A stretch of DNA of 48,306 bases from a virus. Where the stretch lies: positions 1-48,306 of IMG/VR virus record IMGVR_UViG_3300001528_000120; one strand, written 5' to 3'. Below the pieces are notes generated by a model. The model did no database searches. It worked only from the letters and a program-made list of their open reading frames with translations, and had not been told where the DNA came from. Position 1 is the stretch's first letter. Every line of letters begins with the position of its first letter. This document shows, one piece after another, positions 4,562 to 48,306 of this stretch. Made by a program: the position numbers and the translations under genes.

Positions 4562-4607
4562 ATTATACTGCCATAATGACGTGGTGTCTATTGGCAGATT
4601 CACCAAA
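4562..4607 (-). promoter_or_regulatory. Conserved 46-nt promoter module, copy P5
   Basis: Minus strand: TTTGGTGAATCTGCCAAT-AGACAC-N16-TATAAT. Aligns without gaps to modules P1-P4. Confidence 0.55.
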
Positions 4608-4626
4608 AAATAGGTGGTGGTTTTGG

Positions 4627-6280: not shown

Positions 6281-6310
6281 ACTGTGCACCTCCTTTGTTA
6301 TGTTGGCACT

Positions 6311-6356
6311 ATTCTACCACTTTGGGAAAGCGGTTTCTATTCGCAAAACCACCAAA
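6311..6356 (-). promoter_or_regulatory. Conserved 46-nt promoter module, copy P4
   Basis: Minus strand: TTTGGTGGTTTTGCGAAT-AGAAAC-N16-TAGAAT, with TGg giving an extended -10. Confidence 0.55.
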
Positions 6357-6420
6357 CATGAACTGGTTTATTTGGTAATGTTACCCTCTCCACCAAAACA
6401 TTGGCAGAGAGGGCTAGGTC

Positions 6421-7103: not shown

Positions 7104-7384
7104 CAGATAGCACCTCCAAACATAGGCGGCTGGTTTTCCTTCTCAAGCTCCAAGAGGTACTGTGCGTACCACTCAGCCTTATCCAGATCGGTCTGGTTCT
7201 GCGTGGTGTTGTACCGATACCGGTACTTAAACACGTTGCAGCGGCAGAAGGCTGCCACATCAGACTTTCCAAACAGCAGGCACATCTGGTCGATGCACTC
7301 CATGCCACCCTGCTCGTTGTAGTGAGCGGGGTGGTTGACCTTTTCATCGTAGACCTTCTGTGCGTCTGCTTCCTCGTCAGTCAT
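7103..7384 (-). CDS. DUF3310-like protein
   Basis: Motif VNHPAHYN...GMECID, which I recognise as typical of the DUF3310 family. The ATG at 7384 overlaps the nrdD stop. Confidence 0.55.
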   Translation of the reverse strand: MTDEEADAQKVYDEKVNHPAHYNEQGGMECIDQMCLLFGKSDVAAFCRCNVFKYRYRYNTTQNQTDLDKAEWYAQYLLELEKENQPPMFGGAI

Positions 7385-11496: not shown

Positions 11497-11520
11497 GGTA
11501 TTCCTCCTTTCAACATGACC

Positions 11521-11566
11521 AGTATACTACCCTATGGGGTATTTTTCCATTCGCAAAATAACCAAA
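11521..11566 (-). promoter_or_regulatory. Conserved 46-nt promoter module, copy P3 (upstream of the sigma gene)
   Basis: Minus strand: TTTGGTTATTTTGCGAAT-GGAAAA-N16-TATACT. The spacer contains the palindrome TACCCcataGGGTA. Confidence 0.55.
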
Positions 11567-11568
11567 CT

Positions 11569-16549: not shown

Positions 16550-16604
16550 AATAAAAACTCCTTTATTCTTCGTAGGACTTTTCGTCCTCGTTTATTGTGT
16601 CATC

Positions 16605-16650
16605 ATTATAATACCCCGCGGGGCATTTTACAATTGGCAAAATAGCCAAA
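16605..16650 (-). promoter_or_regulatory. Conserved 46-nt promoter module, copy P2
   Basis: Minus strand: TTTGGCTATTTTGCCAAT-TGTAAA-N16-TATAAT. The spacer contains the perfect palindrome CCCCGCGGGG. Confidence 0.6.
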
Positions 16651-16657
16651 AAATAGG

Positions 16658-19399: not shown

Positions 19400-19431
19400 T
19401 TGTTGTTCGCTCCTTTCTTTAGCGTGACTAC

Positions 19432-19477
19432 AGTATAATACCGTGCGGGGTATTTTACAATTCGCATTTTCACCAAA
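19432..19477 (-). promoter_or_regulatory. Conserved 46-nt promoter module, copy P1
   Basis: Minus strand: TTTGGTGAAAATGCGAAT-TGTAAA-N16-TATACT (TTGTAA-N17-TATACT). The spacer contains ATACC..GGTAT. Confidence 0.6.
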
Positions 19478-19489
19478 TAATCAGAAAAT

Positions 19490-19669
19490 TTATTGGTGAT
19501 TATGTACAGGATTCATGTACTGCTCGAATCGCTCCCGTGAAATCCAGTAACGATACGAGTTTGGTGACATTTCCACCGCCACGCCAAACGGGAACTTGTT
19601 CTGGCGCAACCCCATTCTCAGGAATTGGATAGAAACTCCCATTGCTTTGGCAGCTTCCTCAACGCTCAT
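19490..19669 (-). CDS. 59-aa HTH_17/excisionase-like DNA-binding protein, below the ORF-track cut-off
   Basis: Hand translation: MSVEEAAKAMGVSIQFLRMGLRQNKFPFGVAVEMSPNSYRYWISRERFEQYMNPVHNHQ. Overlaps the upstream stop by 11 nt. Confidence 0.55.
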   Translation of the reverse strand: MSVEEAAKAMGVSIQFLRMGLRQNKFPFGVAVEMSPNSYRYWISRERFEQYMNPVHNHQ

Positions 19670-19995: not shown

Positions 19996-20064
19996 GGGGA
20001 GCAGACGGAGTTAAACCGCCATCTAAGGTCATGAGCCTTTACTCTGTCGTTGAGCTATGCTCCC
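19996..20064 (-). tRNA. Non-canonical tRNA-like element with CAT anticodon loop
   Basis: 7-bp acceptor GGGAGCA/TGCTCCC, loop CTCATGA and T-arm GGCGG/CCGTC. Lacks D-loop GG and T-loop C56, has an A-A mismatch in the anticodon stem, and no encoded CCA. Confidence 0.35.
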
Positions 20065-20142: not shown

Positions 20143-20218
20143 TGGCACTCTGGGGTGGACTCGAACCACCGACCGTCTGAGTAACAATCAGATGCGCTAC
20201 CAACTGCGCCACCAGAGT
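20143..20218 (-). tRNA. tRNA-Asn: tRNA-Asn (GTT)
   Basis: Hand-folded cloverleaf: ACTCTGG/CCAGAGT acceptor, GCGC D-stem, TCTGA-TTGTTAC-TCAGA, GGTGG-TTCGAGT-CCACC, encoded CCA. 76 nt. Confidence 0.85.
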
Positions 20219-21209: not shown

Positions 21210-21285
21210 TGGTGCGCCATGCGGGGCTTGAACCCGCGACCCCCAGATTAAAAGTCTGGTACTCTACCAACTGAGTTAATGACAC
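21210..21285 (-). tRNA. tRNA-Lys: tRNA-Lys (TTT)
   Basis: Hand-folded cloverleaf: GTGTCAT/ATGGCGC acceptor (2 G-U pairs), ACTC/GAGT D-stem, CCAGA-CTTTTAA-TCTGG, GCGGG-TTCAAGC-CCCGC, encoded CCA. 76 nt. Confidence 0.85.
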
Positions 21286-21488: not shown

Positions 21489-21950
21489 GGTGTCACACAC
21501 TTTTGGCGGTTGTCACGCACTTTTCGGCTGTCACGCAAAAGTATGTGACACTTTGGTTTGAACTTTTTTGGTCAATAAGCCGATGCTTTGTGGTGTTTAC
21601 AGCTGTTTTGGTGAACTTTCAAAGGCACTTAGTTGAAATCTGTCACAGCGTCACAGACTTTTCTATATAAAAAACTTTCTATATATATAACGATGTTGCA
21701 GCAACAACATGTCAAAAAATATAGTACAATATAAGTCTGTGACATCTGTGACAAAATTTCCGGCACAGACGAAATCGCCAAAAACGCTGATTTTGCCCTG
21801 TTTTTGCAACTTTTTAGGGCAAAACGTGTCACACACTTTGCAAAAGTACGTGACAAAGTACGTGACAAGTGCGTGACACCTTCCAAAGTTTTTGACCATT
21901 TTTTCCGAGAGTTTGTATAGCTTGCACAAAAATGCATAAATATGAATGCT
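21489..21950. repeat. Array B: inverted, colinear, diverged copy of array A (5209-5657)
   Basis: 20-nt exact match: 5250-5269 ttggaaggtgtcacgcactt equals the reverse complement of 21867-21886. TGTCACACACTTTT at 21491 and TGTCACGCACTTTT at 21511 (20-bp spacing). Quasi-palindrome at 21641-21753. Confidence 0.85.
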
Positions 21951-23262: not shown

Positions 23263-24048
23263 TTACTTGGTACGCTTCCATGTGCGGACAACGAAGTACG
23301 GCGGCATGTTGTTATGCGCATTACCAATACCCGCTCCGTTCTGGGCAAGTGTACCGCCATAGTTTTTAGTGCTAGTTGTAACGTAGTCTGGTTTGACCAA
23401 ATACGTGCCACTCGTAGGAGACCAACTAGAAGATGATCCGTCATTGTTGACATACATAGAGTGCGTATGACTTGGCATTTCCTGTACAGTCAGTTTATGA
23501 GTGGCTTCGCCGCCCGTGTCACCAATCGTATAGTCGTTGCTGTCAGAGAGCAGGAATTTACCGCTAATCTGCTCCCACGTACCACCCCATTTGACTTCTG
23601 GGTCAAACTTTGAGTCGGTTGTTTGGTAGATCGTACCGACTGGGTAGAAGAGGTCGAGAACCTGCTCTTTGGATAACTTAGTATCGTTCAGCACTTTGCC
23701 CTTCGCCGCCGACAGTGCATGGTTCAAATAGGTGCTATCAAGCGAGTCATCAACGGTCACTCGGATACTAGACAACGGTACAGACGCATATTCGTCATAC
23801 GTGCCATCAGAGTAAGCGGTCGCGCTGCGCAGTTTCAATTCCATGTTGTACACGTCAAGCGACATTCGCGTTGGAGTAGTTACGCCACCGCTCGTCACGG
23901 TCAGCATAGTGCCAGATTTGGAGCTGTCCCATGTTTTGTCCAGCTTGTTTGCAATGCTGGTACGAGCTTTCGCATCAACTACCTCATAGCGGTACTCATC
24001 GCTGATACCGTCAATATAGCTCATCTCTCTACTTGGCTTATCTGCCAT
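23263..24048 (-). CDS. Tail fibre protein with phage tail-collar domain
   Basis: GAGGAGG ribosome-binding site. GGEATHKLTVQEMPSHTHS...GNAHNNMPPYFVVRTWKRT is the tail-collar signature. Confidence 0.7.
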   Translation of the reverse strand: MADKPSREMSYIDGISDEYRYEVVDAKARTSIANKLDKTWDSSKSGTMLTVTSGGVTTPTRMSLDVYNMELKLRSATAYSDGTYDEYASVPLSSIRVTVDDSLDSTYLNHALSAAKGKVLNDTKLSKEQVLDLFYPVGTIYQTTDSKFDPEVKWGGTWEQISGKFLLSDSNDYTIGDTGGEATHKLTVQEMPSHTHSMYVNNDGSSSSWSPTSGTYLVKPDYVTTSTKNYGGTLAQNGAGIGNAHNNMPPYFVVRTWKRTK

Positions 24049-24062: not shown

Positions 24063-24833
24063 TCAGACCGCTCTCACGTATTTAATGGATACCCAGCCGT
24101 TGCCTTCGTCAGCATACGATTTGAGAAGTCCCCACATGTTACCATGCTCGTCTGCCACCTGTTCCACGATGGTAAACGCTTCGTCTTTACCAATTACACC
24201 AACGACCGGATACTTTGTACCCACGCCGCCACGAATGTTCAGCGAGTCGCAGTTATGGGTTTTCGCCAGCCAGCCAGTAGAGCCAGTTGCAACGTTGCTG
24301 GACGTATTGGTCAAACGGCTCTTGAAGTTACTCCACTTAGAGCTGTCAGAGCCAATCCAACCAGACCAAGCTGGACACTCTTTACCAGTTACGTCAAAGT
24401 GACGATATACGTTGGAAGCAGCGATACCGTATCTTGCCATAAGCAGTTTGGTCAGCTCCACTGCATTCTTAACGGTTTCCTCAGCAATTGCGCCACCGTT
24501 GGAACACATCTCAATGCTGATAGAGTTGGCATTGGTAATCTTACCATACATCTTACCGCCACCAGTACGACCACAGTTGGAATACTTACTGCCGCCAACA
24601 GAGTACGCGATTTTGTTATCGTCAATGCTCTGGTAAACGCTGGTCTTATCCACAAAGTAGTGTGCACCAGCCTTGCGGGTGTTGCTGCCGTGTGCGCTGA
24701 AATAGTTCGCGTTGGCTTTTGCGGTATCAGTCGTGTTGCCAGTGTAGTGCAAGACAATGTACTTGATGCTGCCAGTAGAACGAGTGCCGCCGTAACTGAT
24801 CTTTTTTGCTTTCAAAGTCGTGTTGATGTCCAT
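24063..24833 (-). CDS. Endolysin: N-acetylmuramoyl-L-alanine amidase (Amidase_2/PGRP) plus C-terminal SH3-like wall-binding domain
   Basis: IKYIVLHYTGN...AGAHYFVD...ISIEMC...CPAW. C-terminal LNIRGGVGTKYPVVGVI...GWVSIKYV. Confidence 0.8.
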   Translation of the reverse strand: MDINTTLKAKKISYGGTRSTGSIKYIVLHYTGNTTDTAKANANYFSAHGSNTRKAGAHYFVDKTSVYQSIDDNKIAYSVGGSKYSNCGRTGGGKMYGKITNANSISIEMCSNGGAIAEETVKNAVELTKLLMARYGIAASNVYRHFDVTGKECPAWSGWIGSDSSKWSNFKSRLTNTSSNVATGSTGWLAKTHNCDSLNIRGGVGTKYPVVGVIGKDEAFTIVEQVADEHGNMWGLLKSYADEGNGWVSIKYVRAV

Positions 24834-25282: not shown

Positions 25283-26080
25283 CTACCATTCGTAGACGGC
25301 TCGAAGTACCACATCGTCTCTGGATGGCTGGGTGTTATCTGCGTGACCAACAATCTTGGTGTCGTAGACTGTTGCGCGTTTAATAACGCGGCTTTCGCTG
25401 CTCTGAGCACTACCAGAGTAACGTGGTACGTCAAAGAAGAAACCCTTTCCTGCCCAATTGTCACCAGATTGGTTGGCTTTTGGAATCAATGACGTTGCGT
25501 AGTCAGCATCCGTTGCACTGGACGTATCGGGGTTGTAATCCGACCACAGCAGTAACCAGCCGTTTTTGCAACGTGACAACGCTTTGGTCGGGGTCACTGT
25601 CTGATTGGCTTTCAAGTAAACCGCACCCGTCCAAAGTGGCTGCGGTTCACCGTCCTGCAAGCACCGCCAACCTTTCCAACCGTTCGCGTCAGAATAGTTG
25701 GTATAGACCGATTGCAACGAGCCAAACGCGAGCACCCACACGAGGGACGCGCCCGTTTTATGGACAAGCATTCGCCACGCTTCGGTCGTTTTTGGGTTGT
25801 TACTTACACCACTCTGCGAGTACACGGTGTGAATACCGTTCGGCATCGCGGTAATACTCGCCAAACAATCTGCTCCACTTGCTTTGGTGAAGCTGTACTC
25901 GCAAGTACCATCATCGGCTACGCCCTGTAAGGCTTTCAGCGCGTACTGCGAGTGAGTATGGCTCATCGGGGCTTTACCAGATAAATCAGTGGTAATGGTA
26001 AGTAAATCGTTTTCCAAGCATCGGGTCAGATCATCGTCACGATAACACTCTTTGGTGGAAAACAGTGGATTAAAATTCAT
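25283..26080 (-). CDS. Tail fibre / receptor-binding protein
   Basis: ATG at 26080 (MNFNPLFSTKE...) follows the upstream stop at 26097. Contains GKAPMSHTHSQY. The longer ORF to 26221 overlaps the previous gene. Confidence 0.55.
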   Translation of the reverse strand: MNFNPLFSTKECYRDDDLTRCLENDLLTITTDLSGKAPMSHTHSQYALKALQGVADDGTCEYSFTKASGADCLASITAMPNGIHTVYSQSGVSNNPKTTEAWRMLVHKTGASLVWVLAFGSLQSVYTNYSDANGWKGWRCLQDGEPQPLWTGAVYLKANQTVTPTKALSRCKNGWLLLWSDYNPDTSSATDADYATSLIPKANQSGDNWAGKGFFFDVPRYSGSAQSSESRVIKRATVYDTKIVGHADNTQPSRDDVVLRAVYEW

Positions 26081-26096
26081 GCGCACCCTTTCTCCG

Positions 26097-26579
26097 TCAA
26101 GACGTATATCCAATTGCGATATACATGTAAGTGTGCCTAATCTGGTTGGTAAGCAGATTTGGGGTGTCGGCTTGGTCAAGCTGCTTGTACTGCACAATGA
26201 AACCGTTGTTGTTACCATCAATCTGAATGGCTTTTTCCTTGGCTTCCGAGCCGCTTCCTCCCGTGGTGCTCATTGTGTCCACGTAGATGCCACACGGTTT
26301 AGCTGCTACAGCCAGACCACCGTAGATACCAAAATCATTGGTGGTCATACCGTCAGAGTGCAGCACAAGCACGGCAGCGGGGCTGAACCCAACGTCAATG
26401 ACTCTACCAGTCGTACCATCACCAGTGTAGTATCCGATCTTAATTGGTCGCGCCTTATCAGCGTGGTTTTTCAACAGCTGGTCAATCATGTCCCAGTTGT
26501 CGTTGAGTTTGGTAATGTCCGGCGGCGCGTCCGAAAGCGCGAGTTTTACCAAATTGTAATTTGTCGTTTTGGTTGACAT
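26097..26579 (-). CDS. Tail fibre N-terminal / baseplate-attachment protein
   Basis: MSTKTTNYNLVKLALSDAPPDITKLNDNWDMID is a fibre-type N-terminus. Lies directly after the XkdU-like gene. Confidence 0.5.
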   Translation of the reverse strand: MSTKTTNYNLVKLALSDAPPDITKLNDNWDMIDQLLKNHADKARPIKIGYYTGDGTTGRVIDVGFSPAAVLVLHSDGMTTNDFGIYGGLAVAAKPCGIYVDTMSTTGGSGSEAKEKAIQIDGNNNGFIVQYKQLDQADTPNLLTNQIRHTYMYIAIGYTS

Positions 26580-28970: not shown

Positions 28971-29588
28971 TCACACCTTTAGAAAAACTTCTGCGTAGAT
29001 TACACCCTTGCGCATGGCTTCCGCGTGCGTCTTTACTGCTACGTCAATTCGGTTGCCCTTAATAGCACCACCAGTATCTTCTGCGTGGTACACCTGACCG
29101 TTGATCTTGACGTAAGACCGCAGCTTGATTCGCTTCGGGTCTACGGCACATACGCCAGCTCGTACCTCTGTACCAAGCGCGGTCTTGTAAGGCGCACCGG
29201 CATTGCAAATGTGCGGGTATTTCTCAGCGCAATAGTGCGTAATCTTAAACCGACCAAGCGATTTCCAGTTGCCTGTGTCGGCAATGCTCGTGCCACCGCT
29301 TTCATCCGTACCACCAATATATTTGGTGGAAGAACTGGTCTGATCTTCGTACTTCACACGGGTCGATAGAATCAGATATTTCTGACCGCCTTGATAGCGA
29401 ACCAGCACCACCTTCTCGCCAACGTCAACCTTGGAGTCTATTACCAAAAACGGTTTGGTGAGAATCAGAGTGTCACTGACTTTGACCTCAATCGGGTCAG
29501 CATTGGTGACAGTGCCATATAAGATTTTACACGGATTACTAGCGTCAATGGCTTCTACCGCTGCACGCTTAATAAGGTCTATGTTCAC
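28971..29588 (-). CDS. Spike paralogue 3: DUF2577-like N-terminal domain fused to a 3D (RlpA/MltA-like) domain
   Basis: GTG start. N-terminus IDLIKRAAVEAIDASNP...QGGQKYLIL. C-terminus FKITHYC...CAVDPKRIKL...AEDTGGAIKGNRIDV. Confidence 0.75.
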   Translation of the reverse strand: MNIDLIKRAAVEAIDASNPCKILYGTVTNADPIEVKVSDTLILTKPFLVIDSKVDVGEKVVLVRYQGGQKYLILSTRVKYEDQTSSSTKYIGGTDESGGTSIADTGNWKSLGRFKITHYCAEKYPHICNAGAPYKTALGTEVRAGVCAVDPKRIKLRSYVKINGQVYHAEDTGGAIKGNRIDVAVKTHAEAMRKGVIYAEVFLKV

Positions 29589-30313
29589 GTTGCACCTCTG
29601 CTCTTTAAGAATGATTCGGGGTCAATGGTGGCGGGATAGTGATATGCACCTTTGTGCACTTCCAAATGCAGGTGCTTGCCATAGGCTCGACCAGTCTCAC
29701 CTTCAATTCCAACCACAGTATTTTTGGTGACGGTCTGCCCCGCCTTGACGTACACCGTGCTCATGTGAGCGTACAAACTGACATAGCCATCTGGGTGCTG
29801 AATCAAAACGTGGTTGCCGTAAGCTGAACCCTTGCTGTTCCTGCCAATAACCTTGCCATCCGCAATCGGATGAATCTGCTTGCTACCCGTACCAACAATG
29901 TCGATACCGCAGTGGTAGCCGCACGCCCACGAACCCTTCTTACCAAACTTGGTGCTGATACGATAACCGTTTCTATATGGGTACTGATAAGTAGTGGACG
30001 AGCTGGTGGAAATGGTTGTATCAGTTTCGCCACCAACAATGTTGATATACTTGGTCTGGTCAACTACTGCTGTGGTACTACCAAACACAACGTACTTCTG
30101 ACCGCCCTGCTCTCGGAGCAGTGGCACTTTGTCCCCTATATTTATTGTACCGTTTACGACCAAAAATGGCTGGGTCAAAATCAAATTATTACTGATTTTC
30201 ACTGCCGGAGGGTTGGCAGAGGTCACTTCACCAAACGATAACAGGAGTGGATATGTGGCATCGTAGGCTTCGACCGCCGCTTTCTTGATGGTCTCAATTA
30301 TTCCGGTTGCCAA
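29585..30313 (-). CDS. Spike paralogue 2: DUF2577-like N-terminal domain fused to an M23 metallopeptidase
   Basis: TTG start after GAGGTG. N-terminus IETIKKAAVEAYDATYP...QGGQKYVVF. C-terminus YHCGIDI...LIQHPDGYVSLYAHM...GKHLHLEVH. Confidence 0.8.
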   Translation of the reverse strand: MATGIIETIKKAAVEAYDATYPLLLSFGEVTSANPPAVKISNNLILTQPFLVVNGTINIGDKVPLLREQGGQKYVVFGSTTAVVDQTKYINIVGGETDTTISTSSSTTYQYPYRNGYRISTKFGKKGSWACGYHCGIDIVGTGSKQIHPIADGKVIGRNSKGSAYGNHVLIQHPDGYVSLYAHMSTVYVKAGQTVTKNTVVGIEGETGRAYGKHLHLEVHKGAYHYPATIDPESFLKSRGAT

Positions 30314-30322
30314 ACTATCACC

Positions 30323-31015
30323 TCAATCGTTTAAGTATCTGCCTGCTCCTGCGTAGTGGCTGGCGTAGTAAGAATTGCTCAACGCCACCCGAACTACACC
30401 CGTACTTGGGTTGGCTGCGTGAATCATGTAGCCACCACCAATATACATGCCAACGTGGGTGATGCCGCTGCGACCAGTTGTTCCGGCAAAGAACACCAAG
30501 TCACCAACCTTGAGTTCGGACTTACTGATTTTCTTTGCGCCAGCGTACTGGGCGGCTGCTGTGCGTGGGATGGTCATGCCGATCTGTTTATAGCACCAAA
30601 GCATCAAGCCGGAGCAGTCAAATTTCATAGAACCAGTTGCACCCCAAACGTAAGGGCAACCAATCTTGGATTTGACCAGAGATAGTAAAGCGTTACGCTT
30701 TGTGCTCAGACTTCCAGCGTCCTCCACGTACTCGTTACCACCTATGTTCGTTGTAACCGTTCCAGTAATGCGTTGTGTGCGGTTTCCCAGTACCAAATAC
30801 TGTTGTCCACCCTGTTTGCGGATTACTGATACCGTGTCACCCGCTGCGACTGTACCCGTCAGGATGACAAACTCTTTGGTCAGCGTTATCGTGTCACTGA
30901 TCTTGATAGCCAGCGGGTTAACGCTCTCGACTTTACCAAAACGTAGCTGGACGGGCTGTTCAGCTTCCCACGCTTCCACTGATGCCTGTTTGATTACATC
31001 TAGTAATTCGCTCAT
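30323..31015 (-). CDS. Spike paralogue 1: DUF2577-like N-terminal domain fused to an NlpC/P60 endopeptidase
   Basis: N-terminus LDVIKQASVEAWEAEQP...QGGQQYLVL. C-terminus CPYVWGATG..FDCSGLMLW...GDLVFF...THVGMYIGGGYMIHA. Confidence 0.8.
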   Translation of the reverse strand: MSELLDVIKQASVEAWEAEQPVQLRFGKVESVNPLAIKISDTITLTKEFVILTGTVAAGDTVSVIRKQGGQQYLVLGNRTQRITGTVTTNIGGNEYVEDAGSLSTKRNALLSLVKSKIGCPYVWGATGSMKFDCSGLMLWCYKQIGMTIPRTAAAQYAGAKKISKSELKVGDLVFFAGTTGRSGITHVGMYIGGGYMIHAANPSTGVVRVALSNSYYASHYAGAGRYLND

Positions 31016-40230: not shown

Positions 40231-40806
40231 TTACTTGTTCAGTTTAGCCGCGATTGCTTCTGCCAGTGTTTTTGGGGTGGTGGGAGAAGTCGGGTTTCCA
40301 CCGCCGGATGCCGGAGTGATACCACGCATACCGTTGGAGGTGAACACGCGCTTGTAATCATCGGTTTCAGCCAGTGCTGTCAGCTGTTCATCAAGTCCGG
40401 TAAGTTTACCGTCCTCGCTGATGTCCAACTTGTCCATGTCGATGAGAGCACGCGCCAGCTTCACGCTGGAAGCACCCTTTTCGCGCAGATACTCGTCAGC
40501 CAAGTATCCCAGTTTAACACCCTTAATATCGGAGTCGTATTTGGTCTTGGCGGTTGCAGCGTCCGCTTTCAGCGTTTCAATCTGCTTGGTCAGGTCTTCG
40601 ATAGTTGCATCGCTACCTTCCAGCTTTTTCAGACCAGCGATGGTCTTGTCACGCTCTGCCAAATCATTGGTCAGGGTCGTAACCTTCGTTTCCAGCGTGC
40701 TTGCCTTGCCCTGTTCGCGGGCAATGTCTTTACCGTTCTCAGCCATAATCTGATTGATGACGGTCTGATCTTCAATACCAAGGCTTTTCAAAAATTCAGA
40801 TTTCAT
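40231..40806 (-). CDS. Scaffolding protein (GP20-like)
   Basis: GGAGGAG before the ATG at 40806. Coiled-coil and acidic sequence (MKSEFLKSLGIEDQTVINQIMAENGKDIA...). Confidence 0.7.
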   Translation of the reverse strand: MKSEFLKSLGIEDQTVINQIMAENGKDIAREQGKASTLETKVTTLTNDLAERDKTIAGLKKLEGSDATIEDLTKQIETLKADAATAKTKYDSDIKGVKLGYLADEYLREKGASSVKLARALIDMDKLDISEDGKLTGLDEQLTALAETDDYKRVFTSNGMRGITPASGGGNPTSPTTPKTLAEAIAAKLNK

Positions 40807-40900
40807 AAAATACTCCTCCACTCTGCTAGGCTTTTTAGGTCGTTGCCATGACCTACAGTCGGCATTCTTTAGGTCTTGCCGATAGACCAGATAGTTTCAA

Positions 40901-41755: not shown

Positions 41756-43159
41756 TTAATCACCTGACCCAGAGTCGTATAAGCCGTCACCCTTGTCGGT
41801 TTTGGCGTTGATTGCATTGAACTGTTCCATCTCGTCCATCTCCTGCTGTTTATCTTCTTCCAGCAACGACATCTCGCGCTGTACATCAGATACCCACGGA
41901 TGTCTGGACAGGATGGTCTGTTTGGAAATAATACCAACAGATTTGACGCAAGCATCAATCGTGGCATCCTCATTGATGAAAATGTCGCGGTTGAATACGA
42001 ACTCAACCTTGGTGTCGGAGAAATCGCCTTTACCCTTCGCCGCCAGATAGGTGTCGATGAACCATTTCAGTTCACCAAGACCAGCTTGGAACTCGCTTTC
42101 CATCGTGTCGATGTCCAAATCAATGTCGGTGTACATCGACTCAATGTTCATCTGGTTCGGGTCTCCGTCCATGCGCTCCTCTTTGGCATCAAAGCCACGA
42201 CCGTTTTCCATGATCGCTCGTTTGAGCTGCATGAGGATTGCTTGGTAGTTCTGGGCGTTTACGTCCACCTTCAAGGTGTCGATACCACCCTGTACACCGT
42301 CCACGGTCTGTACCTTGACTGCACCATACGTGGCAAGGTTGCGCCGAAACGTTCCCAAGTCAGTACCGTCATAGTTCTTGATAATCAGGATAGTATTGCG
42401 GGGATCTTCCTCCATGTTGTTTTGAAAGTCACTCAACACTTGGTTTAGAGAGTCCTGTAAGCACTTGACGTTCTGGATGAGTGGAATCTCATCTTCGTTG
42501 TACCGGAACGGGATAAGCGGAACTTTGTCCCAGTTCGCTGGTTGCCCGTTCACCACCAAATAATCCGTATGCGGGCTGGTTTTGTCTGGAATCAGTGAGC
42601 CGCCCAACCGCACATAGCGGTCAATGCCGTGGCGGGTGTAGACCTCCACGCGCTCAACGGTGCGGATTGAACCGTTATCGAAAACGTCCTCTGGGTAGAA
42701 ACGCATCGCGCCAGATAATGTAGTATGGGAAGCATCCGTCCAAACCGGACATATCTCGTAGGACGGGAAGATCGCGGTGTTGAACTCGCCAGCTTCGTCC
42801 ACATACGGATGCATCCAGCCGATACCAAAGTTGACAGCGCACTTGGACATGCGCCTAATACGCATTGCCATTCGCTTGTCAAAGATGTCGTTCAGCTCTT
42901 CCAAATATGTGTCGTCGGAAGTAGCTACCGTAATCGGTTTACCAAGCGCATAGTTGGTTTTCTGGTCAACCAGCTTCTTATACTGGTTATCCACCAAACG
43001 ATTGTTGGGGAGGTTGTGAACTACGTCTTTACCGCCCGACTCGTTGATGACGGTTCGCTCTCGGCTTAAAATGTCATGCTTACCAAGATAGTACCGTTCG
43101 CCAAGTAGCATGTTCTTGCGCTGGTCAGAGTCAATCCACATGTTGAGCAGCTTTTCCAA
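41756..43159 (-). CDS. Portal protein (SPP1 gp6-like); the true start may lie upstream at 43231
   Basis: 467 aa. RYYLGKHDI...NNRLVDNQYKKLVDQKTNY. The frame stays open 24 codons upstream, back to an ATA placed 7 nt after GGAGGTG. Confidence 0.8.
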   Translation of the reverse strand: MEKLLNMWIDSDQRKNMLLGERYYLGKHDILSRERTVINESGGKDVVHNLPNNRLVDNQYKKLVDQKTNYALGKPITVATSDDTYLEELNDIFDKRMAMRIRRMSKCAVNFGIGWMHPYVDEAGEFNTAIFPSYEICPVWTDASHTTLSGAMRFYPEDVFDNGSIRTVERVEVYTRHGIDRYVRLGGSLIPDKTSPHTDYLVVNGQPANWDKVPLIPFRYNEDEIPLIQNVKCLQDSLNQVLSDFQNNMEEDPRNTILIIKNYDGTDLGTFRRNLATYGAVKVQTVDGVQGGIDTLKVDVNAQNYQAILMQLKRAIMENGRGFDAKEERMDGDPNQMNIESMYTDIDLDIDTMESEFQAGLGELKWFIDTYLAAKGKGDFSDTKVEFVFNRDIFINEDATIDACVKSVGIISKQTILSRHPWVSDVQREMSLLEEDKQQEMDEMEQFNAINAKTDKGDGLYDSGSGD

Positions 43160-43246: not shown

Positions 43247-44680
43247 TCAACTAAAGCTGTACAGATTGCCGCGTCCAACCTTCTCTGCCAAACCTGTCAG
43301 AGCGTCCGGCGCGTCATCGTGTTTATTCTTGCCCTCTTTCTGATACTTGTAGAGGGCATCGTAAAATTCTGGGTATTTTGTTTTCCAGTCAGCAGGGAAA
43401 TAAATGTGATCCATGCACCAAGTAGCATTCGAGAGGATTCGTGCTACCTTGTTTTTGGACTGGTAAAACAGATTGAAGTGCACTCTGTTGGAGTGGTATT
43501 TGTCGTACATGATTCGCTGTACGGAGCGTCCAAAACCACGACCACCGTTGTTGGACTCGATGTCGGCTACCTGTACGCCCAAATCGTGAAGTCGTTTCGC
43601 TACGAGCGGTTCGGTAATTTCCATCGCTTCCTTGGTGTAAATGACATCCAAAACATAACACTCGTTGAGGTATACGCCGTATGTGATGGAACAAAGGTAA
43701 TCTTCGCCCTTGTCGGCAGTATCGGTGTAGTTCTTGACCTCGAAGAACGCTGGTTCGCCAAGTTTAGCGTCACCGACTGGTTTCTCGCGGGGAATGTCAT
43801 CGTAGGTTTTGAAGTGGGTATAGAGTCTGCCTTGCAAGTCAATCGGGTGCTGACCATAGTTCGCCAGAACAATGTCTTTACCCATCATGTTCGCTTTGTC
43901 CTCATAATCCTCGCGGTTCAATACATCGTCACAGAGCATTGAGCCGTCAGGAAGTGGAGTAGGCATGTTGACATGTACCAAAGCATCGGGGTTGACCTTG
44001 CTATAATGGTCAAGGACTCGTCCTGCCAAATCGGCAGAGTGCCAACGAGTCATGATGACGATGACCTTGCCACCGGACTCCAAACGGGAGAGCATTGTAT
44101 TGGTGAACCACTCCCAGTGGTTGTCCAAAACAGTCTCGTTATTGGCTTCCTCAGCGTTCTTAATCAAGTCATCTATGAGAAGCAGTGATGCACCGAAACC
44201 AGTGGCAGTACCGGACGGCGAGGTTGCCAGATAATTGGCGTGCTGTCCTTCCAACGACCACAGGTTCGCCGCGCCGTCACCACGTTTGATACGGTTGTGA
44301 GGGAAAATCTCTCGGTAAACCACGCGGTCGGCATCTGCTTTTCTCTCCATGATGTCGTTTCGTACACCACGTGAGAAGGTGGTGGAAAGAGTCTCGTTAT
44401 AAGAGCCAGTCATAATTTTCTCTTTTGGACTCTTTCCGAGTACCCACTCCACAAAAAGCTGCGCCGTTCGGCTCTTGCCGTGACGTGGTGGCATGTTTAC
44501 CACCAACACTTTCTTGTCAGAGTAGTAAAAGTCCTGCAATGTGTTGCAGAAATTCTTGAGGTACGTTCGACCTTCTTTATAAAAATCTGGGGCTTTGAGT
44601 TTACAATACTCCCAGAAAGTCAAGCGTGCCAGTTGAAGTTTGGCTTGGTAGACAAGCAGTTTCTTTTGATCTTCTCGCAA
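43247..44680 (-). CDS. terL: Terminase large subunit
   Basis: TTG start 7 nt after AGGAGG. Walker A VVNMPPRHGKS, LLLIDD Walker B-like motif, and C-terminal nuclease part. Confidence 0.9.
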   Translation of the reverse strand: MREDQKKLLVYQAKLQLARLTFWEYCKLKAPDFYKEGRTYLKNFCNTLQDFYYSDKKVLVVNMPPRHGKSRTAQLFVEWVLGKSPKEKIMTGSYNETLSTTFSRGVRNDIMERKADADRVVYREIFPHNRIKRGDGAANLWSLEGQHANYLATSPSGTATGFGASLLLIDDLIKNAEEANNETVLDNHWEWFTNTMLSRLESGGKVIVIMTRWHSADLAGRVLDHYSKVNPDALVHVNMPTPLPDGSMLCDDVLNREDYEDKANMMGKDIVLANYGQHPIDLQGRLYTHFKTYDDIPREKPVGDAKLGEPAFFEVKNYTDTADKGEDYLCSITYGVYLNECYVLDVIYTKEAMEITEPLVAKRLHDLGVQVADIESNNGGRGFGRSVQRIMYDKYHSNRVHFNLFYQSKNKVARILSNATWCMDHIYFPADWKTKYPEFYDALYKYQKEGKNKHDDAPDALTGLAEKVGRGNLYSFS

Positions 44681-44697: not shown

Positions 44698-45207
44698 TTA
44701 CGCTGTTTTTGCGAAAATTGTTACATAGTAGTCTCCACTCGCCACGAGCGAGTCAGACGTTGCGAGTACCACGCCCGTGCCATCCACAAAGCTGAGAAAG
44801 CCAGTGGCAGCTTCGTCCAAACCACCAGATTTGAAGGTGGCTGAGACTGTGGTGGTGCTGGAACTGTGAATACCACGAATGCCGTAGTAATCGTCCAACG
44901 CCGCGCTCTTGGTGAACGGCGGTAAGAACAACTCAGAGAATACTATTTGGTTTTTGTCGTGCTGGTCATCGGTCTTTTGGACGCAGACTCGCAGAGCCTT
45001 GAACTTGGAGCGGTCAATCTGCGTGGCAGTTGACGCTACCAAACCAAACGACCTCAGCTCGTCCAGCGACCAAATCACTGGGTTGTCATCACCAATCGTC
45101 ATGGTCTTGGACTCGAACAACGCGCCGCCGCTACCATTATTACCAGTGACGTTCAGCGATACAAGTCGCGTCCATTCACCGTTTTCTTTATATCTAACAG
45201 TCGGCAT
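44698..45207 (-). CDS. Hypothetical protein at the end of the terS-terL insertion
   Basis: 169 aa with AGGAGG ribosome-binding site. No motif recognised. Confidence 0.55.
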   Translation of the reverse strand: MPTVRYKENGEWTRLVSLNVTGNNGSGGALFESKTMTIGDDNPVIWSLDELRSFGLVASTATQIDRSKFKALRVCVQKTDDQHDKNQIVFSELFLPPFTKSAALDDYYGIRGIHSSSTTTVSATFKSGGLDEAATGFLSFVDGTGVVLATSDSLVASGDYYVTIFAKTA

Positions 45208-45222
45208 GTTGTCCTCCTATCC

Positions 45223-46074
45223 TTAGATTCCACGTGTTACCAACAGTGTGCCACCATTCAAGGTGGGCAGTCCTGTCAGTTTACCGCCCGATACACCAAA
45301 CGTACAGGACGTTTTGGATGGGCTACCATATAGAGCCGATTTGTAATAACCGTCACCACAAAACGCATGAACAGTAGTGCTGCTGCCACCCCAACCACTA
45401 GATGATGTGGAGTAAGCGTATCCCCAAACCTTTATATCACCAGATGTTGTGGTGAAACTAACGGTCGGGTCGGTCGCGTCAATGGTATATGCTTCACAGT
45501 TGCCGTTGCCACCGCTTGACGTTGCCAGCGTACCAAGTACACCAAAAATGGAAACACCTTCTTTGATGTTCTCAGCGGTCAGGTTTGCGTCACCAGACAC
45601 AGTGACGCTTGACAGACCATTGTAACCATCGTCTGGCGCAACAGTCTGCTCTGATGCCGATGGGGTGACGATTTTCTCCTGAGTCGTAAACGTAGGCGGT
45701 TCATATGTACCAGTCACAGTAAGTCCTTCGGCACTTGTAAACGTCTTACCTTTCGTGACATCCGAAGCGGTTGCGTTACCAAACTGTGATCCATTACAAT
45801 TTAGAAAATACGATTGATCTTTTCGGATAAATCCATCGTTCCATGCTTTACCAGTAATTCTAATCCACGGAGCACCATTGATCGTAATTTGACTCGCCGT
45901 ATTGGTCTCATTGGTACCACTAATCGCATTCGCAAGTGTTCCCGTGACTTGTGCACCAGACTTGTCATGCGCCGTAACACCCTTTACCAAGTCCTTTGCT
46001 GTCACAGTATCGTTGACCAGATCAACAATGGTTTCATCGTTCACGATGACCTGATTTACAGTGGTAGCTGCCAT
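45223..46074 (-). CDS. Fibre-like protein, paralogue of the 46079-46651 product
   Basis: [32 protein letters not shown] and [26 protein letters not shown] are shared with its neighbour. Confidence 0.6.
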
Positions 46075-46078
46075 TCAA

Positions 46079-46651
46079 TCACCCGATTGTTACAGTGATG
46101 CCGCCAGCGGCATTCTCTGCTTCCACGTATGGGATTTTCTCAACGGTTACAGCAGATAGGTAGTCGTAACCGCTATCCGGTTGAACCGTCTGAGCAGTTG
46201 CTTTCGGCGTTACGGTTTTGGTCTGTGCCTTGATGGATGCACCAGAGTAAGTACCCGTCACGCCGAGAATAGATACACCAGATTTGATGTTACCAGCAAC
46301 GATCTTGTTCTGCTCAGTGGTGCTGATCGCTACTTTACCAGAGCCATCGTGGTAGCCCTGCGGCACAGTGTACGAACCAGCTTTGGTGGAGATAGTACCA
46401 GTAACCGCGCCGTTATTCGGCATTGTACCAGTAATCTTGCTACCACGTGCGTATGCGGTTTTACCAGTCAGCATTTCTGCGACTGCCACGGTTGCGTCAG
46501 TGGTATCACTGTCCTTGGTACTTGTACCAGTGATAGCTGCGCCTGATTTATCGTGGGCGGTGATTCCCTTTGCCAGCTTATCAGCCGACACGGTGTCACC
46601 GCTAATATCAATCAACGTGTTTCCGTTGTAAATAACCTTGTTTACTGCCAA
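46079..46651 (-). CDS. Fibre-like protein
   Basis: TTG start 9 nt after [52 protein letters not shown] and KTVTPKATAQTVQPDSGYDYLSAVTV. Confidence 0.6.
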   Translation of the reverse strand: MAVNKVIYNGNTLIDISGDTVSADKLAKGITAHDKSGAAITGTSTKDSDTTDATVAVAEMLTGKTAYARGSKITGTMPNNGAVTGTISTKAGSYTVPQGYHDGSGKVAISTTEQNKIVAGNIKSGVSILGVTGTYSGASIKAQTKTVTPKATAQTVQPDSGYDYLSAVTVEKIPYVEAENAAGGITVTIG

Positions 46652-46654
46652 AGA

Positions 46655-47113
46655 TTAAACCTCCGATGCTATGTAAACGGTCGTTCCAGTCTGATTGGAT
46701 GTCTCGAAGTATGGGACGCTGTTAATCGTGACATCTTCGGTCATCTGCTTACCAGCGCATTCCAACGACTGCGATTCAGCCTTTGGCGTGACCACATAGT
46801 TGCCAGTGTAGGCTTCGATGTCCTTTACACCAAGATTGGAACGAACCTCTTTTTTCTGTTCGTCTGTAAGTGACTGGCTGAGTTCTACCAAAACATTGGC
46901 ATTGTCCTCAGATGGGTTCACCCACAATTGGACGGCTGGGTCGGTCGGTTCGGTGTCCGATACGACTACGCCAGCGTTGCCAGTATCACCCTTGTCACCT
47001 TTGTCTCCCTTGTCACCTTTGTCTCCCTTATCGCCTTTTAAGACGGTTACGTCTGAGAGGTTGCCAGAAAAGTTCTCGTCATCGTTGAAGGACGCGTTAA
47101 ATGTGAAGTTCAT
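46655..47113 (-). CDS. Collagen-like repeat protein (fibre-like)
   Basis: (GDK)5-GDT-GNA-G triple-helix motif, then TEPTDPAVQLWVNP and a VVTPKAESQ module. Confidence 0.65.
   Translation of the reverse strand: MNFTFNASFNDDENFSGNLSDVTVLKGDKGDKGDKGDKGDKGDTGNAGVVVSDTEPTDPAVQLWVNPSEDNANVLVELSQSLTDEQKKEVRSNLGVKDIEAYTGNYVVTPKAESQSLECAGKQMTEDVTINSVPYFETSNQTGTTVYIASEV
46991..47035. repeat. In-frame 9/18-bp tandem repeat encoding (GDK)5
   Basis: cttgtcacc tttgtctcc cttgtcacc tttgtctcc cttatcgcc. Confidence 0.9.
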
Positions 47114-47427
47114 GCCATCGCTCCTTCCAAAATAGACGGGTCAACGCGCGTGTACATAATGTTGGACGTTGCGACTGTACCACTATTGGTTCTCAGCCGC
47201 AGCTGCATCTTCACATCGTTCAGCGCGCCACTCTCGGAGAACAGCAACGTGTCCTCCTGCGTGAGCGGCACTTCCAAAACATTGTCGGTCAGCTTACACT
47301 GATCGCCGCTCTTTACCAAAACAACGTTGCCGCGCTGGGAGTACGTGACCTCGGCGGCGGCGATGCCCATTACCAACATATTGGCGGGGATGGTGAACTT
47401 GTGCGTAGGCGCACTACCTCGTATCAT
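47110..47427 (-). CDS. Hypothetical beta-rich protein
   Basis: 105 aa with ATGA coupling to terS at 47424-47427 and to the collagen-like gene at 47110-47113. Confidence 0.55.
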   Translation of the reverse strand: MIRGSAPTHKFTIPANMLVMGIAAAEVTYSQRGNVVLVKSGDQCKLTDNVLEVPLTQEDTLLFSESGALNDVKMQLRLRTNSGTVATSNIMYTRVDPSILEGAMA

Positions 47428-47855
47428 TCAGCATCCTCCTGTTCCTGCGAGACAATCAGCTTTTTCAGCTCGTCTGCGCTCATCTCACCAAAGTTGATAT
47501 TGGTGGTCTGATCGCCACCTGTGTTCGCGTCTGTGTAGACCGCGTTCATCTTATTTATAATGTCCAAAGCACGGAGACGATTTCCGGTTGCTTCGTTTTC
47601 ATCCAGTGCAATCTTCCAAAGTTCGGCTTTAGACGATTCATATTCGTCTTTAACGGAGTCGAATTTGACCCTATCCAGTTCACGTAAATACTCGATGACG
47701 AGCGGGTGTTTCATCAGCTTGCTAGCCAACGCATTACAGCTATTCGGGTTGTGGTTGTCATACGCTTTTTCGTATGCTTTCGCCTGCGATTCGCCATTAT
47801 TTATGTAGTGGCAGAACAATTTCATCTGATGCTTCATCACGGGTCTGGCTGGCAT
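47424..47855 (-). CDS. terS: Terminase small subunit (Terminase_2-like)
   Basis: GGAGGTG ribosome-binding site. KLFCHYINNGESQAKAYEKAY...NALASKLMKHPLVIEYL is the typical N-terminal HTH region. Confidence 0.75.
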   Translation of the reverse strand: MPARPVMKHQMKLFCHYINNGESQAKAYEKAYDNHNPNSCNALASKLMKHPLVIEYLRELDRVKFDSVKDEYESSKAELWKIALDENEATGNRLRALDIINKMNAVYTDANTGGDQTTNINFGEMSADELKKLIVSQEQEDAE

Positions 47856-48004
47856 CCAAATTCACCTCCAAAACGGCTTAACAAAAAGCCTGCGATTTTC
47901 TTCATACTTAACCGCGCTTTCGGCGGCTCTTAACATAGTGCTCGCTCTCGATCAGGCGGGCGGCTACCAAATCATCGAAAAACTTCATTTTACAAGTACC
48001 TTTC

Positions 48005-48032
48005 ATTTTATGAAAATAGTGTTTGAGTCCAA
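48005..48032 (-). promoter_or_regulatory. Candidate promoter for the packaging/late operon (TTGGAC-N16-TAAAAT)
   Basis: Minus strand: ttggac tcaaacactattttca taaaat, about 150 nt upstream of terS. Confidence 0.35.
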
Positions 48033-48231
48033 AATTTTTTTAGGGTAGGGACTCATAGCAACACTAACAAATCTCTGCCCCTTCGCCCTTCTCTCATTCT
48101 TGTCATTACAAACAATTGTGAATCATCAAAAACTGAGTAACAACGACTTTCATTCAATGCAAACAATAACCTATGTTCTTTTGTGTTACCAAAAAATATG
48201 TAATAGATAATCATGAGCATTGATGAGAATA

Positions 48232-48306
48232 GGCTTGCTTGCTTTGTGTGTATACTACGTGTATACTGGCGGGCTATGAATACACGTTGGAGAAGTGCAC
48301 CGCCAA
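48232..48306. repeat. Terminal overlap identical to 1-75
   Basis: Exact 75-nt identity with the start of the window. Confidence 0.95.

What the first reader, a model, noticed from the sequence alone, without database searches (positions are those of the whole stretch)
44698..47427. terS and terL are separated by a 2.7-kb, five-gene insertion of fibre-like and collagen-like genes
terS and terL are normally adjacent. Here five co-oriented, translationally coupled ORFs lie between them:
- 47110-47427: hypothetical protein
- 46655-47113: collagen-like (GDK)5 protein
- 46079-46651: fibre-like paralogue
- 45223-46074: fibre-like paralogue
- 44698-45207: hypothetical protein

ATGA overlaps at 47424-47427 and 47110-47113 tie the first two to terS translation. 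Placing receptor-binding-type genes at the very start of the packaging operon is unusual. Possible readings are a mobile fibre cassette, head fibres or whiskers, or regulatory coupling of these proteins to packaging.
Basis: partly seen in the sequence, partly recalled or inferred. Interest (0 to 1): 0.65.

Follow-up and report, generated by a model that had tools for sequence, protein, structure and literature searches.

The report
Portable fibre gene cassette splitting terminase genes
A temperate gut phage carries a widely shared four-gene "fibre" cassette plus one lineage-specific gene between its two DNA-packaging genes, whereas other phages keep the cassette at the end of the tail genes; this is a clear case of a host-recognition-type module moving around phage genomes, but its proteins have never been studied.

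Summary
Five co-oriented, tightly packed minus-strand ORFs (44698-47427) lie between a small terminase (47424-47855) and a large terminase (43247-44680). The window is a complete circular ~48.2-kb temperate myovirus genome.

Four of the ORFs (o105, col152, f190, f283) form a conserved cassette:
- f190 homologues occur in 169 IMG/VR stretches, and f283 has 1400 homologues in the protein database.
- In most loci the cassette sits after tail or tail-fibre genes and before holin/endolysin.
- The fifth ORF (o169) is a lineage-specific orphan.

The terS-cassette-terL order is fixed in at least five further independently assembled genomes. All five genes are under purifying selection (dN/dS 0.03-0.15).

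In the wider myophage clade, cassettes led by an o105-type gene also sit at terL|portal and portal|MuF. Many clade members have none, and terS homologues abut terL. So this is a relocated mobile cassette.

f283 is the hot spot: 65-66% identical between genomes whose flanking proteins are 91-98% identical.

Best reading: an accessory virion fibre or adhesin module co-expressed with late genes. Tail or neck attachment is unresolved. No match exists to any characterised protein.

Verdict: a new variant of a known kind (mosaic fibre modules), of moderate interest.

The parts
47424..47855 (-). terS, small terminase subunit (143 aa)
   Evidence: phrog_51 E 9e-10, phrog_2606 and phrog_641; no Pfam hit. 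Homologues abut terL in MT839618 and L034/L068. No other terS candidate among ten upstream ORFs.
47110..47427 (-). o105, first gene of the cassette; small Ig-like beta-sandwich protein, proposed adaptor or anchor
   Evidence: phrog_15594, unknown function, E 4e-16. AF2 pLDDT 78, pTM 0.70; Ig-like PDB hits, none with E<=0.001. Always the first gene of the cassette in relatives. dN/dS 0.12.
46655..47113 (-). col152, connector protein: lineage-specific N-terminal extension with a collagen-like tract plus a conserved C-terminal module (residues ~95-152)
   Evidence: C-terminus matches phrog_31538 E 6.5e-14; Collagen PF01391 20.7 bits, below cut-off. In other phages the homologue is only ~76-137 aa (mostly 86-102) and lacks G-X-Y repeats. 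dN/dS 0.03.
46964..47035 (-). collagen-like tract, 8 G-X-Y triplets (GDK x5, GDT, GNA, GVV), encoded by a 9-nt tandem repeat
   Evidence: Translation; repeat family D1. One triplet fewer in L113. None of the cassette-region ORFs examined in 83 related loci has 5 or more consecutive triplets.
46079..46651 (-). f190, the most conserved cassette protein (proposed shaft)
   Evidence: phrog_13589 E 2e-54. 58-74% identical across sipho- and myovirus backbones; mean column identity 66%. No PDB sequence relative. dN/dS 0.03.
45223..46074 (-). f283, paralogue of f190 with an added C-terminal beta-sandwich; the fast-evolving member (proposed host-binding tip)
   Evidence: Paralogy with f190. 1400 homologues. 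AF2 C-terminal domain (193-283) pLDDT about 80-94, mostly about 90. No PDB fold match. BFVD matches labelled 'tail protein'. 65-66% identical in genomes whose neighbouring proteins are 91-98% identical.
45775..45954 (-). hypervariable segment of f283 (residues ~41-100)
   Evidence: 5-35% identity in 20-residue windows against L194, L195 and L113, with conserved flanks. DNA similarity to L113 breaks at 45961-45606.
44698..45207 (-). o169, lineage-specific fifth gene (orphan); proposed cognate chaperone or tip accessory of f283
   Evidence: No Pfam or PHROG family. Only 92%-identical homologues in the same lineage, from 5.8 and 1.8 billion proteins searched. Replaced in L113 by an 84-aa lipoprotein-like ORF plus a 47-aa N-terminal remnant. 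dN/dS 0.14.
43247..44680 (-). terL, large terminase subunit (477 aa)
   Evidence: phrog_30251 E 4e-199; Terminase_6N E 1.6e-6. About 60% identical to C. difficile and C. tetani myophage terL.
23263..24048 (-). t261, Gp10_C-domain fibre-like protein encoded after the endolysin; possible partner or co-acquired piece of the cassette (association inferred)
   Evidence: PF21939 Gp10_C E 5e-19 and Phage_fiber_rpt. Its C-terminal domain is 69-76% identical to the Gp10_C protein encoded immediately upstream of the cassette in siphovirus prophages L085-L089.

Best explanation
The five ORFs are real late genes. Four of them (o105, col152, f190, f283) make up a horizontally mobile, self-contained accessory fibre or adhesin cassette, which is widespread in phages of gut Bacillota.

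In most phages the cassette lies at the distal end of the tail module, just before the lysis genes. In this temperate myovirus lineage it was inserted, or relocated, between terS and terL and became fixed there, picking up a lineage-specific fifth gene (o169).

The cassette has no promoter or terminator of its own. Its genes are joined by 4-nt overlaps or 3-17-nt gaps, each with its own ribosome-binding site. It is therefore read as part of the late operon and made together with the virion proteins (inferred). This is why its position in the operon can vary without cost.

Proposed assembly (inferred from conservation patterns, not shown):
- The Ig-like o105 acts as adaptor.
- col152 is a short trimerising connector, here reinforced by 8 collagen triplets.
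- f190 is the conserved shaft.
- f283 is the exchangeable host-binding tip. Its variable segment (residues 41-100) sits above a beta-sandwich C-terminal domain.
- o169 is a cognate chaperone or tip accessory.

The attachment point on the virion is most likely the tail or baseplate, as in the siphovirus relatives. It may involve the Gp10_C protein t261.
For: Shown:
- ORFs, junctions and ribosome-binding sites are as described.
- All five genes are under purifying selection (dN/dS 0.03-0.15), with dS similar to the backbone genes.
- The same order occurs in five further independently assembled genomes: L084, L113, L116, L194 and L195. L114 and L115 are partial contigs carrying the same o105 protein as L113.
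- f190 homologues occur in 169 IMG/VR stretches, and 80 loci were kept for inspection.
- The core layout is an o105-like gene (~100-118 aa), a col-like gene (~76-137 aa, mostly 86-102), f190 (~195 aa), then a variable gene of 70-707 aa with a conserved N-terminus.
- Upstream neighbours are mostly tail or tail-fibre families. Downstream neighbours are holin, endolysin or tail-fibre families.
- An identical f283 homologue (P0101) occurs in two different siphovirus backbones.
- In the related myophage clade, o105-led cassettes sit at terL|portal (L118, L123, L130) and portal|MuF (L034/L117, L068, L126). L128 shows the same 2.5-kb portal-MuF gap as L126, but its ORFs were not checked. Other members have none.
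- f283 is the divergence hot spot.
- There is no promoter or terminator excess and there are no flanking repeats.
- GC content is like the rest of the genome.
- BFVD structural neighbours of f283 are annotated 'tail protein'.
- t261 resembles the Gp10_C gene that precedes the cassette elsewhere.
Against: - No cassette protein matches an experimentally characterised fibre by sequence or fold: no Pfam hit, no PDB hit, Foldseek E>0.5 for f283.
- The 'tail protein' labels on relatives are automated annotations.
- There are no proteomic or imaging data.
- The AF2 model of f283 is poor for residues 1-190 (monomer model, pTM 0.36).
- Among close homologues, the C-terminal domain of f283 is conserved and an internal segment varies. 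This is not the classic pattern for a receptor-binding tip.
- The phage already has a canonical tail fibre (25283-26221).
- Repeated placement beside terminase and portal genes in this clade could instead point to a head or neck location.
Confidence: 0.55

Rival explanations
1. In this myophage clade the cassette encodes neck whiskers or head fibres rather than tail fibres. It is kept beside the portal and terminase genes because it belongs to the head/neck assembly module.
For: - o105-led cassettes recur at three junctions of the terS-terL-portal-MuF block in related phages.
- In Shigella phage Sf14 the two whisker genes (gp30, gp31) directly follow the portal gene gp29 (PMC11821841).
- The best-superposing PDB hit of the o105 model is a chain of the Sf14 neck reconstruction (9c39_J: TM 0.54, rmsd 2.0 A over 80 columns, E 0.036).
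- SPP1 gp12 is a collagen-like capsid accessory protein (PMC6316719).
Against: - In siphoviruses the same cassette lies after Dit/Tal/Gp10_C or tail-fibre genes and before the holin.
- The Sf14 match is not significant, and o105 matches generic Ig domains equally well.
- The collagen tract is confined to this lineage.
- Gene position alone does not fix the location of a product on the virion.
Confidence: 0.2
2. The cassette is a non-virion accessory ('moron'-type) module, for example cell-surface or exclusion proteins, that simply occupies a permissive junction.
For: - The terS|terL, terL|portal and portal|MuF junctions of this clade hold varied unrelated inserts, such as an endolysin-like ORF in L034 and small ORFs in L134 and L184.
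- In L113 an 84-aa lipoprotein-like ORF sits at the o169 position.
- SPP1 also has accessory ORFs interrupting this block.
Against: - The cassette has no promoter or terminator of its own.
- No N-terminal signal or hydrophobic segment is visible in the five translated sequences (read by eye; not tested with a predictor).
- Repetitive beta-rich, collagen-like and paralogous architecture is typical of fibres.
- The usual neighbourhood is tail fibres.
Confidence: 0.07
3. The 47424-47855 product is not the working small terminase. The true terS is elsewhere or absent, so nothing is 'split'.
For: Support for terS is only at PHROG level (E 9e-10), with no Pfam terminase hit and only one weak tblastn hit among 50,697 phage records.
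Against: - Three terS PHROGs match.
- Homologues sit immediately upstream of terL in MT839618, L034 and L068.
- Ten ORFs further upstream show no terS family.
- The gene opens the late operon after a ~0.9-kb non-coding stretch that is also present in L113.
Confidence: 0.05
4. The position serves regulation: translational coupling to terS sets the amount of cassette protein or links it to packaging.
For: ATGA overlaps link terS to o105 and o105 to col152.
Against: - Each gene has its own strong Shine-Dalgarno sequence.
- Such overlaps are commonplace in late operons.
- The same cassette works from tail-end, terL|portal and portal|MuF positions in other phages.
Confidence: 0.03

Closest known systems
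Mosaic, horizontally exchanged tail-fibre / receptor-binding modules of tailed phages (modular evolution; my own knowledge of the field)
   Same: - A compact set of fibre-type genes is shared between unrelated backbones. An identical protein occurs in two siphovirus backbones.
- The anchor end is conserved and the distal end is variable.
- The cassette usually lies between tail genes and lysis genes.
   Different: - Here the module is displaced to the very start of the late operon, between terS and terL.
- In sister phages it sits at terL|portal or portal|MuF.
- Its four protein families have no characterised member and no Pfam model.
Shigella myophage Sf14 neck whiskers gp30/gp31 (PMC11821841)
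   Same: - Fibre genes are encoded in the head/packaging block right after the portal gene, as in L034, L068 and L126.
- There is a weak fold resemblance between o105 and a chain of the Sf14 neck model.
   Different: - No sequence similarity was found.
- The fold match is not significant (E 0.036).
- In the window the cassette precedes terL rather than following the portal gene.
- The siphovirus homologues are at the tail end.
Bacillus phage SPP1: accessory ORFs 3-5 and 8-10 interrupting the terminase-portal-gp7-scaffold block, and the collagen-like capsid protein gp12 (PMC6316719)
   Same: - Same portal (SPP1_portal) and gp7/Mu-F type head module, with accessory genes tolerated at the same junctions.
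- A short collagen-like trimer serves as a virion accessory protein.
   Different: - The SPP1 inserts are small ORFs of unknown function, not a fibre cassette.
- gp12 is 64 aa and lies between the scaffold and capsid genes.
- No homology to col152 was tested or found.
T4 baseplate protein gp10 C-terminal domain family (PF21939)
   Same: t261 of this phage, and the gene preceding the cassette in siphoprophages L085-L089, carry this domain above the Pfam cut-off.
   Different: None of the five cassette proteins carries it. The link between t261 and the cassette rests on synteny in other phages only.

Membership tests
Small terminase subunit (PHROG 51 / 2606 / 641) | Profile match to a terS family | tested here: met
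   phrog_51 E 9.3e-10 over residues 7-133; phrog_2606 E 1e-4; phrog_641 E 3e-3. No Pfam terS model matched.
Small terminase subunit | Encoded directly upstream of terL in relatives | tested here: met
   The homologue ends 8 nt from the terL start in MT839618. The gap is 80 nt in L034. In L068 the two are separated by one 118-aa ORF.
Small terminase subunit | Oligomeric DNA-binding protein that recognises pac/cos | not testable with these tools
   Needs biochemistry.
Large terminase subunit | ATPase N-terminal domain and RNaseH-like nuclease domain | tested here: met
   Terminase_6N 28.4 bits, above the 22-bit cut-off; phrog_30251 E 4e-199. The T7 RNaseH-like domain is only a weak hit (15 bits).
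Collagen triple-helix repeat (PF01391) | G-X-Y repeats scoring above the Pfam gathering threshold | tested here: not met
   20.7 bits against a cut-off of 27.2. Only 8 triplets are present. The G-X-Y periodicity itself is perfect over 24 residues.
PHROG 15594 / 31538 / 13589 / 28171 (unknown-function phage families) | Profile match | tested here: met
   o105 E 4e-16; col152 C-terminus E 6.5e-14; f190 E 2e-54; f283 E 5e-9.
Structurally characterised phage fibre / receptor-binding folds | Significant sequence or fold match to a solved fibre, spike or RBP | tested here: not met
   phmmer and profile searches of PDB sequences found nothing credible. Foldseek of the f283 model against PDB gave a best E of 0.57.
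Tail-fibre module by synteny | Lies between baseplate/tail genes and holin/endolysin | tested here: not met
   Not met in the window, where it lies between terS and terL. Met for most homologous cassettes in other phages.
Moron (autonomous accessory gene unit) | Own promoter and terminator flanking the insert | tested here: not met
   Consensus scan: 10 promoter-like sites against 5.9+/-2.5 expected, and 7 terminator-like sites against 5.4+/-2.6 expected. None brackets the cassette. This is a consensus scan only, so weak evidence.
Diversity-generating retroelement target | Template/variable repeat pair and a reverse transcriptase nearby | tested here: not met
   No repeat of 40 nt or more involves f283 anywhere in the genome. 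No RT was seen among the roughly 40 ORFs scanned against PHROGs or Pfam, which is about a third of the ORFs of 90 aa or more.
Sf14-type neck whiskers | Fold or sequence similarity to gp30/gp31/gp37 | tested here: inconclusive
   o105 model against 9c39_J: TM 0.54, rmsd 2.0 A, E 0.036. The identity of chain J was not resolved.
Virion structural protein | Present in purified particles | not testable with these tools
   Needs proteomics or EM.

The most novel reading that the evidence does not exclude
The o105-led cassette is a backbone-independent, plug-in fibre. It carries its own Ig-like adaptor and so can be mounted on very different virions (siphovirus tail tips, myovirus necks or baseplates). 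In this myophage clade it forms portal-proximal whiskers or head fibres. The genes hop between the terS|terL, terL|portal and portal|MuF junctions, while the tip gene f283 is swapped to retarget the phage.
Probability: 0.2. Interest if true: 0.65.

Novelty: new variant of a known kind. Interest (0 to 1): 0.42.

Why it matters
The cassette is common in gut Bacillota phages and prophages: 169 matching IMG/VR stretches and 1400 f283 homologues. Yet all four of its protein families are uncharacterised.

If it is a host-recognition module, three things follow:
- f283 and the variable fourth gene in other phages are probably determinants of host range or adhesion for many uncultured gut phages.
- The window lineage shows that such modules need not sit in the tail gene block. 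Synteny-based annotation ('genes between terS and terL are packaging genes', 'fibres are next to lysis genes') would therefore mislabel them.
- The three alternative insertion junctions in one clade offer a natural experiment on how fibre modules move.

Tried and rejected
- Megablast of the region against 50,697 phage records: no match.
- Sequence searches of o105, f190, f283 and o169, and profile searches of the o105 and f190 families, against all PDB chains: nothing credible.
- Foldseek of the f283 model against PDB: no hit below E 0.5.
- Pfam on all five proteins and on 34 o105-family members: nothing above cut-off.
- Exhaustive HMMER search of o169 against 1.84 billion representatives: only its own lineage, plus a marginal hit (E 9e-5) to repeated Ig/cadherin domains of a 2284-aa RTX adhesin. 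I do not rely on this hit.
- Search for flanking direct or inverted repeats, or a DGR template repeat: none.
- Host assignment through terL in 185,579 species genomes: only relatives at 55% identity or less, in uncultured Clostridia/Bacilli MAGs, so the host is unresolved.
- Literature search for fibre genes between terminase genes: nothing specific found.
- An alternative terS upstream of the called one: none found.
Full report
**What is there**

The window's first and last 75 nt are identical, so it is a circularly closed assembly of about 48.2 kb. It is a temperate myovirus-type genome. Its late genes all lie on the minus strand, in this order:
- terS 47424-47855
- five ORFs
- terL 43247-44680
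- SPP1-type portal 41756-43159
- Mu-F/gp7-like protein, scaffold, major capsid protein
- sheath, tape measure, baseplate
- tail fibre 25283-26221
- amidase 24063-24833
- a Gp10_C-domain protein, t261, at 23263-24048
- a tyrosine integrase on the plus strand

Their junctions are as follows:
- The terS/o105 and o105/col152 junctions are ATGA overlaps preceded by AGGAGG-type sites.
- The other junctions are gaps of 3-17 nt, also with Shine-Dalgarno sequences.
- The collagen-like stretch is 8 G-X-Y triplets encoded by a 9-nt tandem repeat. It is below Pfam's threshold.
- f190 and f283 are clear paralogues, and col152 shares its C-terminal module with f190.

**Are they genes, and is the arrangement real?**

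The same gene order and gene sizes (143-105-152-190-~283-169-477 aa) recur in independently assembled contigs of 47-49 kb from other samples:
- L084 (ENA), L194 and L195 (Logan).
- L113, L114 and L116 carry a variant form.

Against L084, dN/dS is 0.03-0.15 for all five genes, and dS is comparable to terL, portal and MuF. The cassette is therefore not an assembly artefact or decaying DNA. It has co-diverged with this phage lineage.

**Is it an insertion?**

Yes, on four grounds:
- The closest cultured terL relatives are C. difficile and C. tetani myophages at about 60% identity. They have terS next to terL.
- A homologue of this terS abuts terL in MT839618.
- In L034 the gap between terS and terL is 80 nt.
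- The cassette exists elsewhere. f190 homologues occur in 169 IMG/VR stretches, and f283 has 1400 homologues in the protein database.

Across 83 loci the core is [o105-like, ~100-118 aa] - [col-like, ~76-137 aa, mostly 86-102] - [f190, ~195 aa] - [a protein of 70-707 aa whose first ~45 residues match f190/f283]. Its usual neighbours are:
- Upstream: mainly tail and tail-fibre families.
- Downstream: holin, endolysin or further tail-fibre families.

Annotated examples:
- Oscillospiraceae phage NatCom_27610: tail proteins - cassette - holin - endolysin.
- Siphovirus prophages L085-L089: TMP - Dit - Tal-like - Gp10_C - 116 - 91 - 195 - 282 aa - holin.
- The identical 282-aa protein occurs in two different siphovirus backbones (L085 and L088). 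This shows horizontal exchange.

**A clade-level pattern**

Among myophages related to the window (terL 56-60%, portal 58-66%, MCP 58-71% identical), o105-led cassettes occupy three different junctions of the packaging block:
- terS|terL in the window lineage.
- terL|portal in L118 (99-89-357-216-419 aa) and in L123/L130 (100-427 aa).
- portal|MuF in L034=L117 and L068 (102-94-191-...) and in L126 (102-86-363-220). L128 shows the same 2.5-kb portal-MuF gap as L126, but its ORFs were not checked.

Several members have no cassette there (L120, L125, L127, L131-L133, L182). Others carry unrelated inserts. SPP1, which has the same portal/gp7 head module, is also known to tolerate accessory ORFs at these junctions (PMC6316719).

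I found no flanking repeats, no promoter or terminator excess, and no GC anomaly around the cassette.

**What the proteins look like**

None has a Pfam model or a relative of solved structure by sequence.

| Protein | Main findings |
|---|---|
| o105 | Models as an Ig-like beta-sandwich (pLDDT 78, pTM 0.70). PDB matches are generic Ig domains, none with E<=0.001. The best superposition is a chain of the Sf14 neck model (E 0.036). |
| f283 | Models confidently only in its C-terminal beta-sandwich (residues 193-283). No PDB match. Its BFVD neighbours are metagenomic proteins auto-labelled 'tail protein'. |
| f190 | Strikingly conserved: 58-74% identity across unrelated backbones. |
| o105 family | Very divergent: 8-40% identity, two subfamilies. 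|
| Fourth gene | Varies in length and sequence after its first ~45 residues. |

Within the window lineage, f283 is the hot spot. It is 65-66% identical in L194 and L195, where the other eight proteins are 91-98% identical. Divergence is concentrated in residues ~41-100. No DGR-type repeat accounts for this.

o169 is an orphan. In L113 it is replaced by a lipoprotein-like 84-aa ORF plus a 47-aa remnant of o169.

The collagen tract is unique to this lineage's col152.

**Most likely mechanism**

What is shown:
- A conserved, mobile four-gene unit.
- Late-operon embedding.
- Purifying selection.
- A fast-evolving fourth gene.

What is inferred:
- The products assemble into an accessory fibre in the order adaptor (o105), connector (col152), shaft (f190) and variable tip (f283). 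o169 serves as chaperone or tip accessory.
- Because all late genes appear to be co-transcribed (inferred from the absence of internal promoters or terminators), the cassette can function from any permissive junction.

t261 may be related. Its Gp10_C domain is 69-76% identical to that of the gene preceding the cassette in L085-L089. This hints that both pieces came from a siphovirus-type tail-end module and may work together. That link is synteny-based only.

**Rivals**

The main rival is a neck or head location (whiskers or head fibres). It is suggested by:
- The repeated portal- and terminase-proximal placement.
- The Sf14 precedent, where whisker genes gp30/31 follow the portal gene gp29.
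- The weak Sf14 neck fold hit.
- SPP1's collagen-like capsid protein gp12.

Against it, the siphovirus homologues are embedded among tail-tip genes. The non-virion 'moron', mis-called terS and regulatory-coupling readings are less likely, for the reasons given in the rivals section.

**Comparison with what is known, and verdict**

This works like the familiar mosaic fibre / receptor-binding modules of tailed phages. It differs in three ways:
- Its position: the start of the late operon, with sister cassettes at two other junctions of the packaging block.
- Its composition: four uncharacterised families.
- A lineage-specific collagen extension and an orphan fifth gene.

I rate it a new variant of a known kind and moderately interesting. 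It is a solid, reproducible genomic observation with a plausible but untested function.

Noticed in passing
window 1-75 and 48232-48306: Identical 75-nt ends: the window is a circularly closed assembly, i.e. a complete ~48.2-kb phage genome. L084 reads straight across the junction.
   Followed up: yes
window 40827-40888 (-): Rfam GP20-b RNA motif (RF03003, 56.8 bits against gathering score 36.2), immediately upstream of the scaffold gene 40231-40821.
   Followed up: no
window 23263-24048 (-): A fibre-like protein with a T4 Gp10_C domain and a fibre repeat is encoded after the amidase endolysin, next to the integrase. Its C-terminal domain is 69-76% identical to the gene that precedes the cassette in siphoprophages L085-L089.
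   Followed up: partly
window 28971-31015 (-): Three consecutive paralogous genes share an N-terminal phrog_579 domain fused to different peptidase or lysin domains (DNA repeat families D2 and D7). This looks like a tandem set of tail-associated cell-wall hydrolases.
   Followed up: no
window 4561-4633, 6310-6382, 11520-11592, 16591-16677, 19418-19504: Five copies of a 47-87-nt intergenic repeat in the early region, containing a TATAAT-like box and a GC-rich hairpin. Probably a repeated early promoter/operator.
   Followed up: no
window 19996-20064, 20143-20218, 21210-21285 (-): Three phage-encoded tRNA genes (Met-CAT, Asn-GTT, Lys-TTT) between the early genes and the integrase.
   Followed up: no
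window 7377-8981 and 9058-9720 (-): An NrdD-like anaerobic ribonucleotide reductase (phrog_487, E 1e-135), with an HNH endonuclease immediately upstream of it on the minus strand, in the early region.
   Followed up: no
window 5429-5487 and 21647-21705: A 59-nt AT-rich inverted repeat (75% complementary) whose arms lie 16 kb apart, bracketing much of the early region.
   Followed up: no
window 47856-48306 plus 1-447: About 0.9 kb without a convincing gene upstream of terS. A similar ~1-kb gap precedes terS in L113, L116, L194 and L195. It is a candidate site for the late promoter or pac region.
   Followed up: no
L113 9228-9638: In this close relative o169 is replaced by an 84-aa ORF with a lipoprotein-like signal sequence (MKKKIITGIVACALVAGAAMPAFAC...) and a 47-aa remnant of the o169 N-terminus. 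The end of the cassette is therefore a site of gene flux.
   Followed up: partly
L135 3995-6796; L034 5254-5871; L134 5657-7636: Related myophages show other disruptions of the packaging block: terL split into three tblastn pieces (L135), an endolysin-like 205-aa ORF between terL and portal (L034), and 2 kb of small ORFs between terS and terL (L134).
   Followed up: partly
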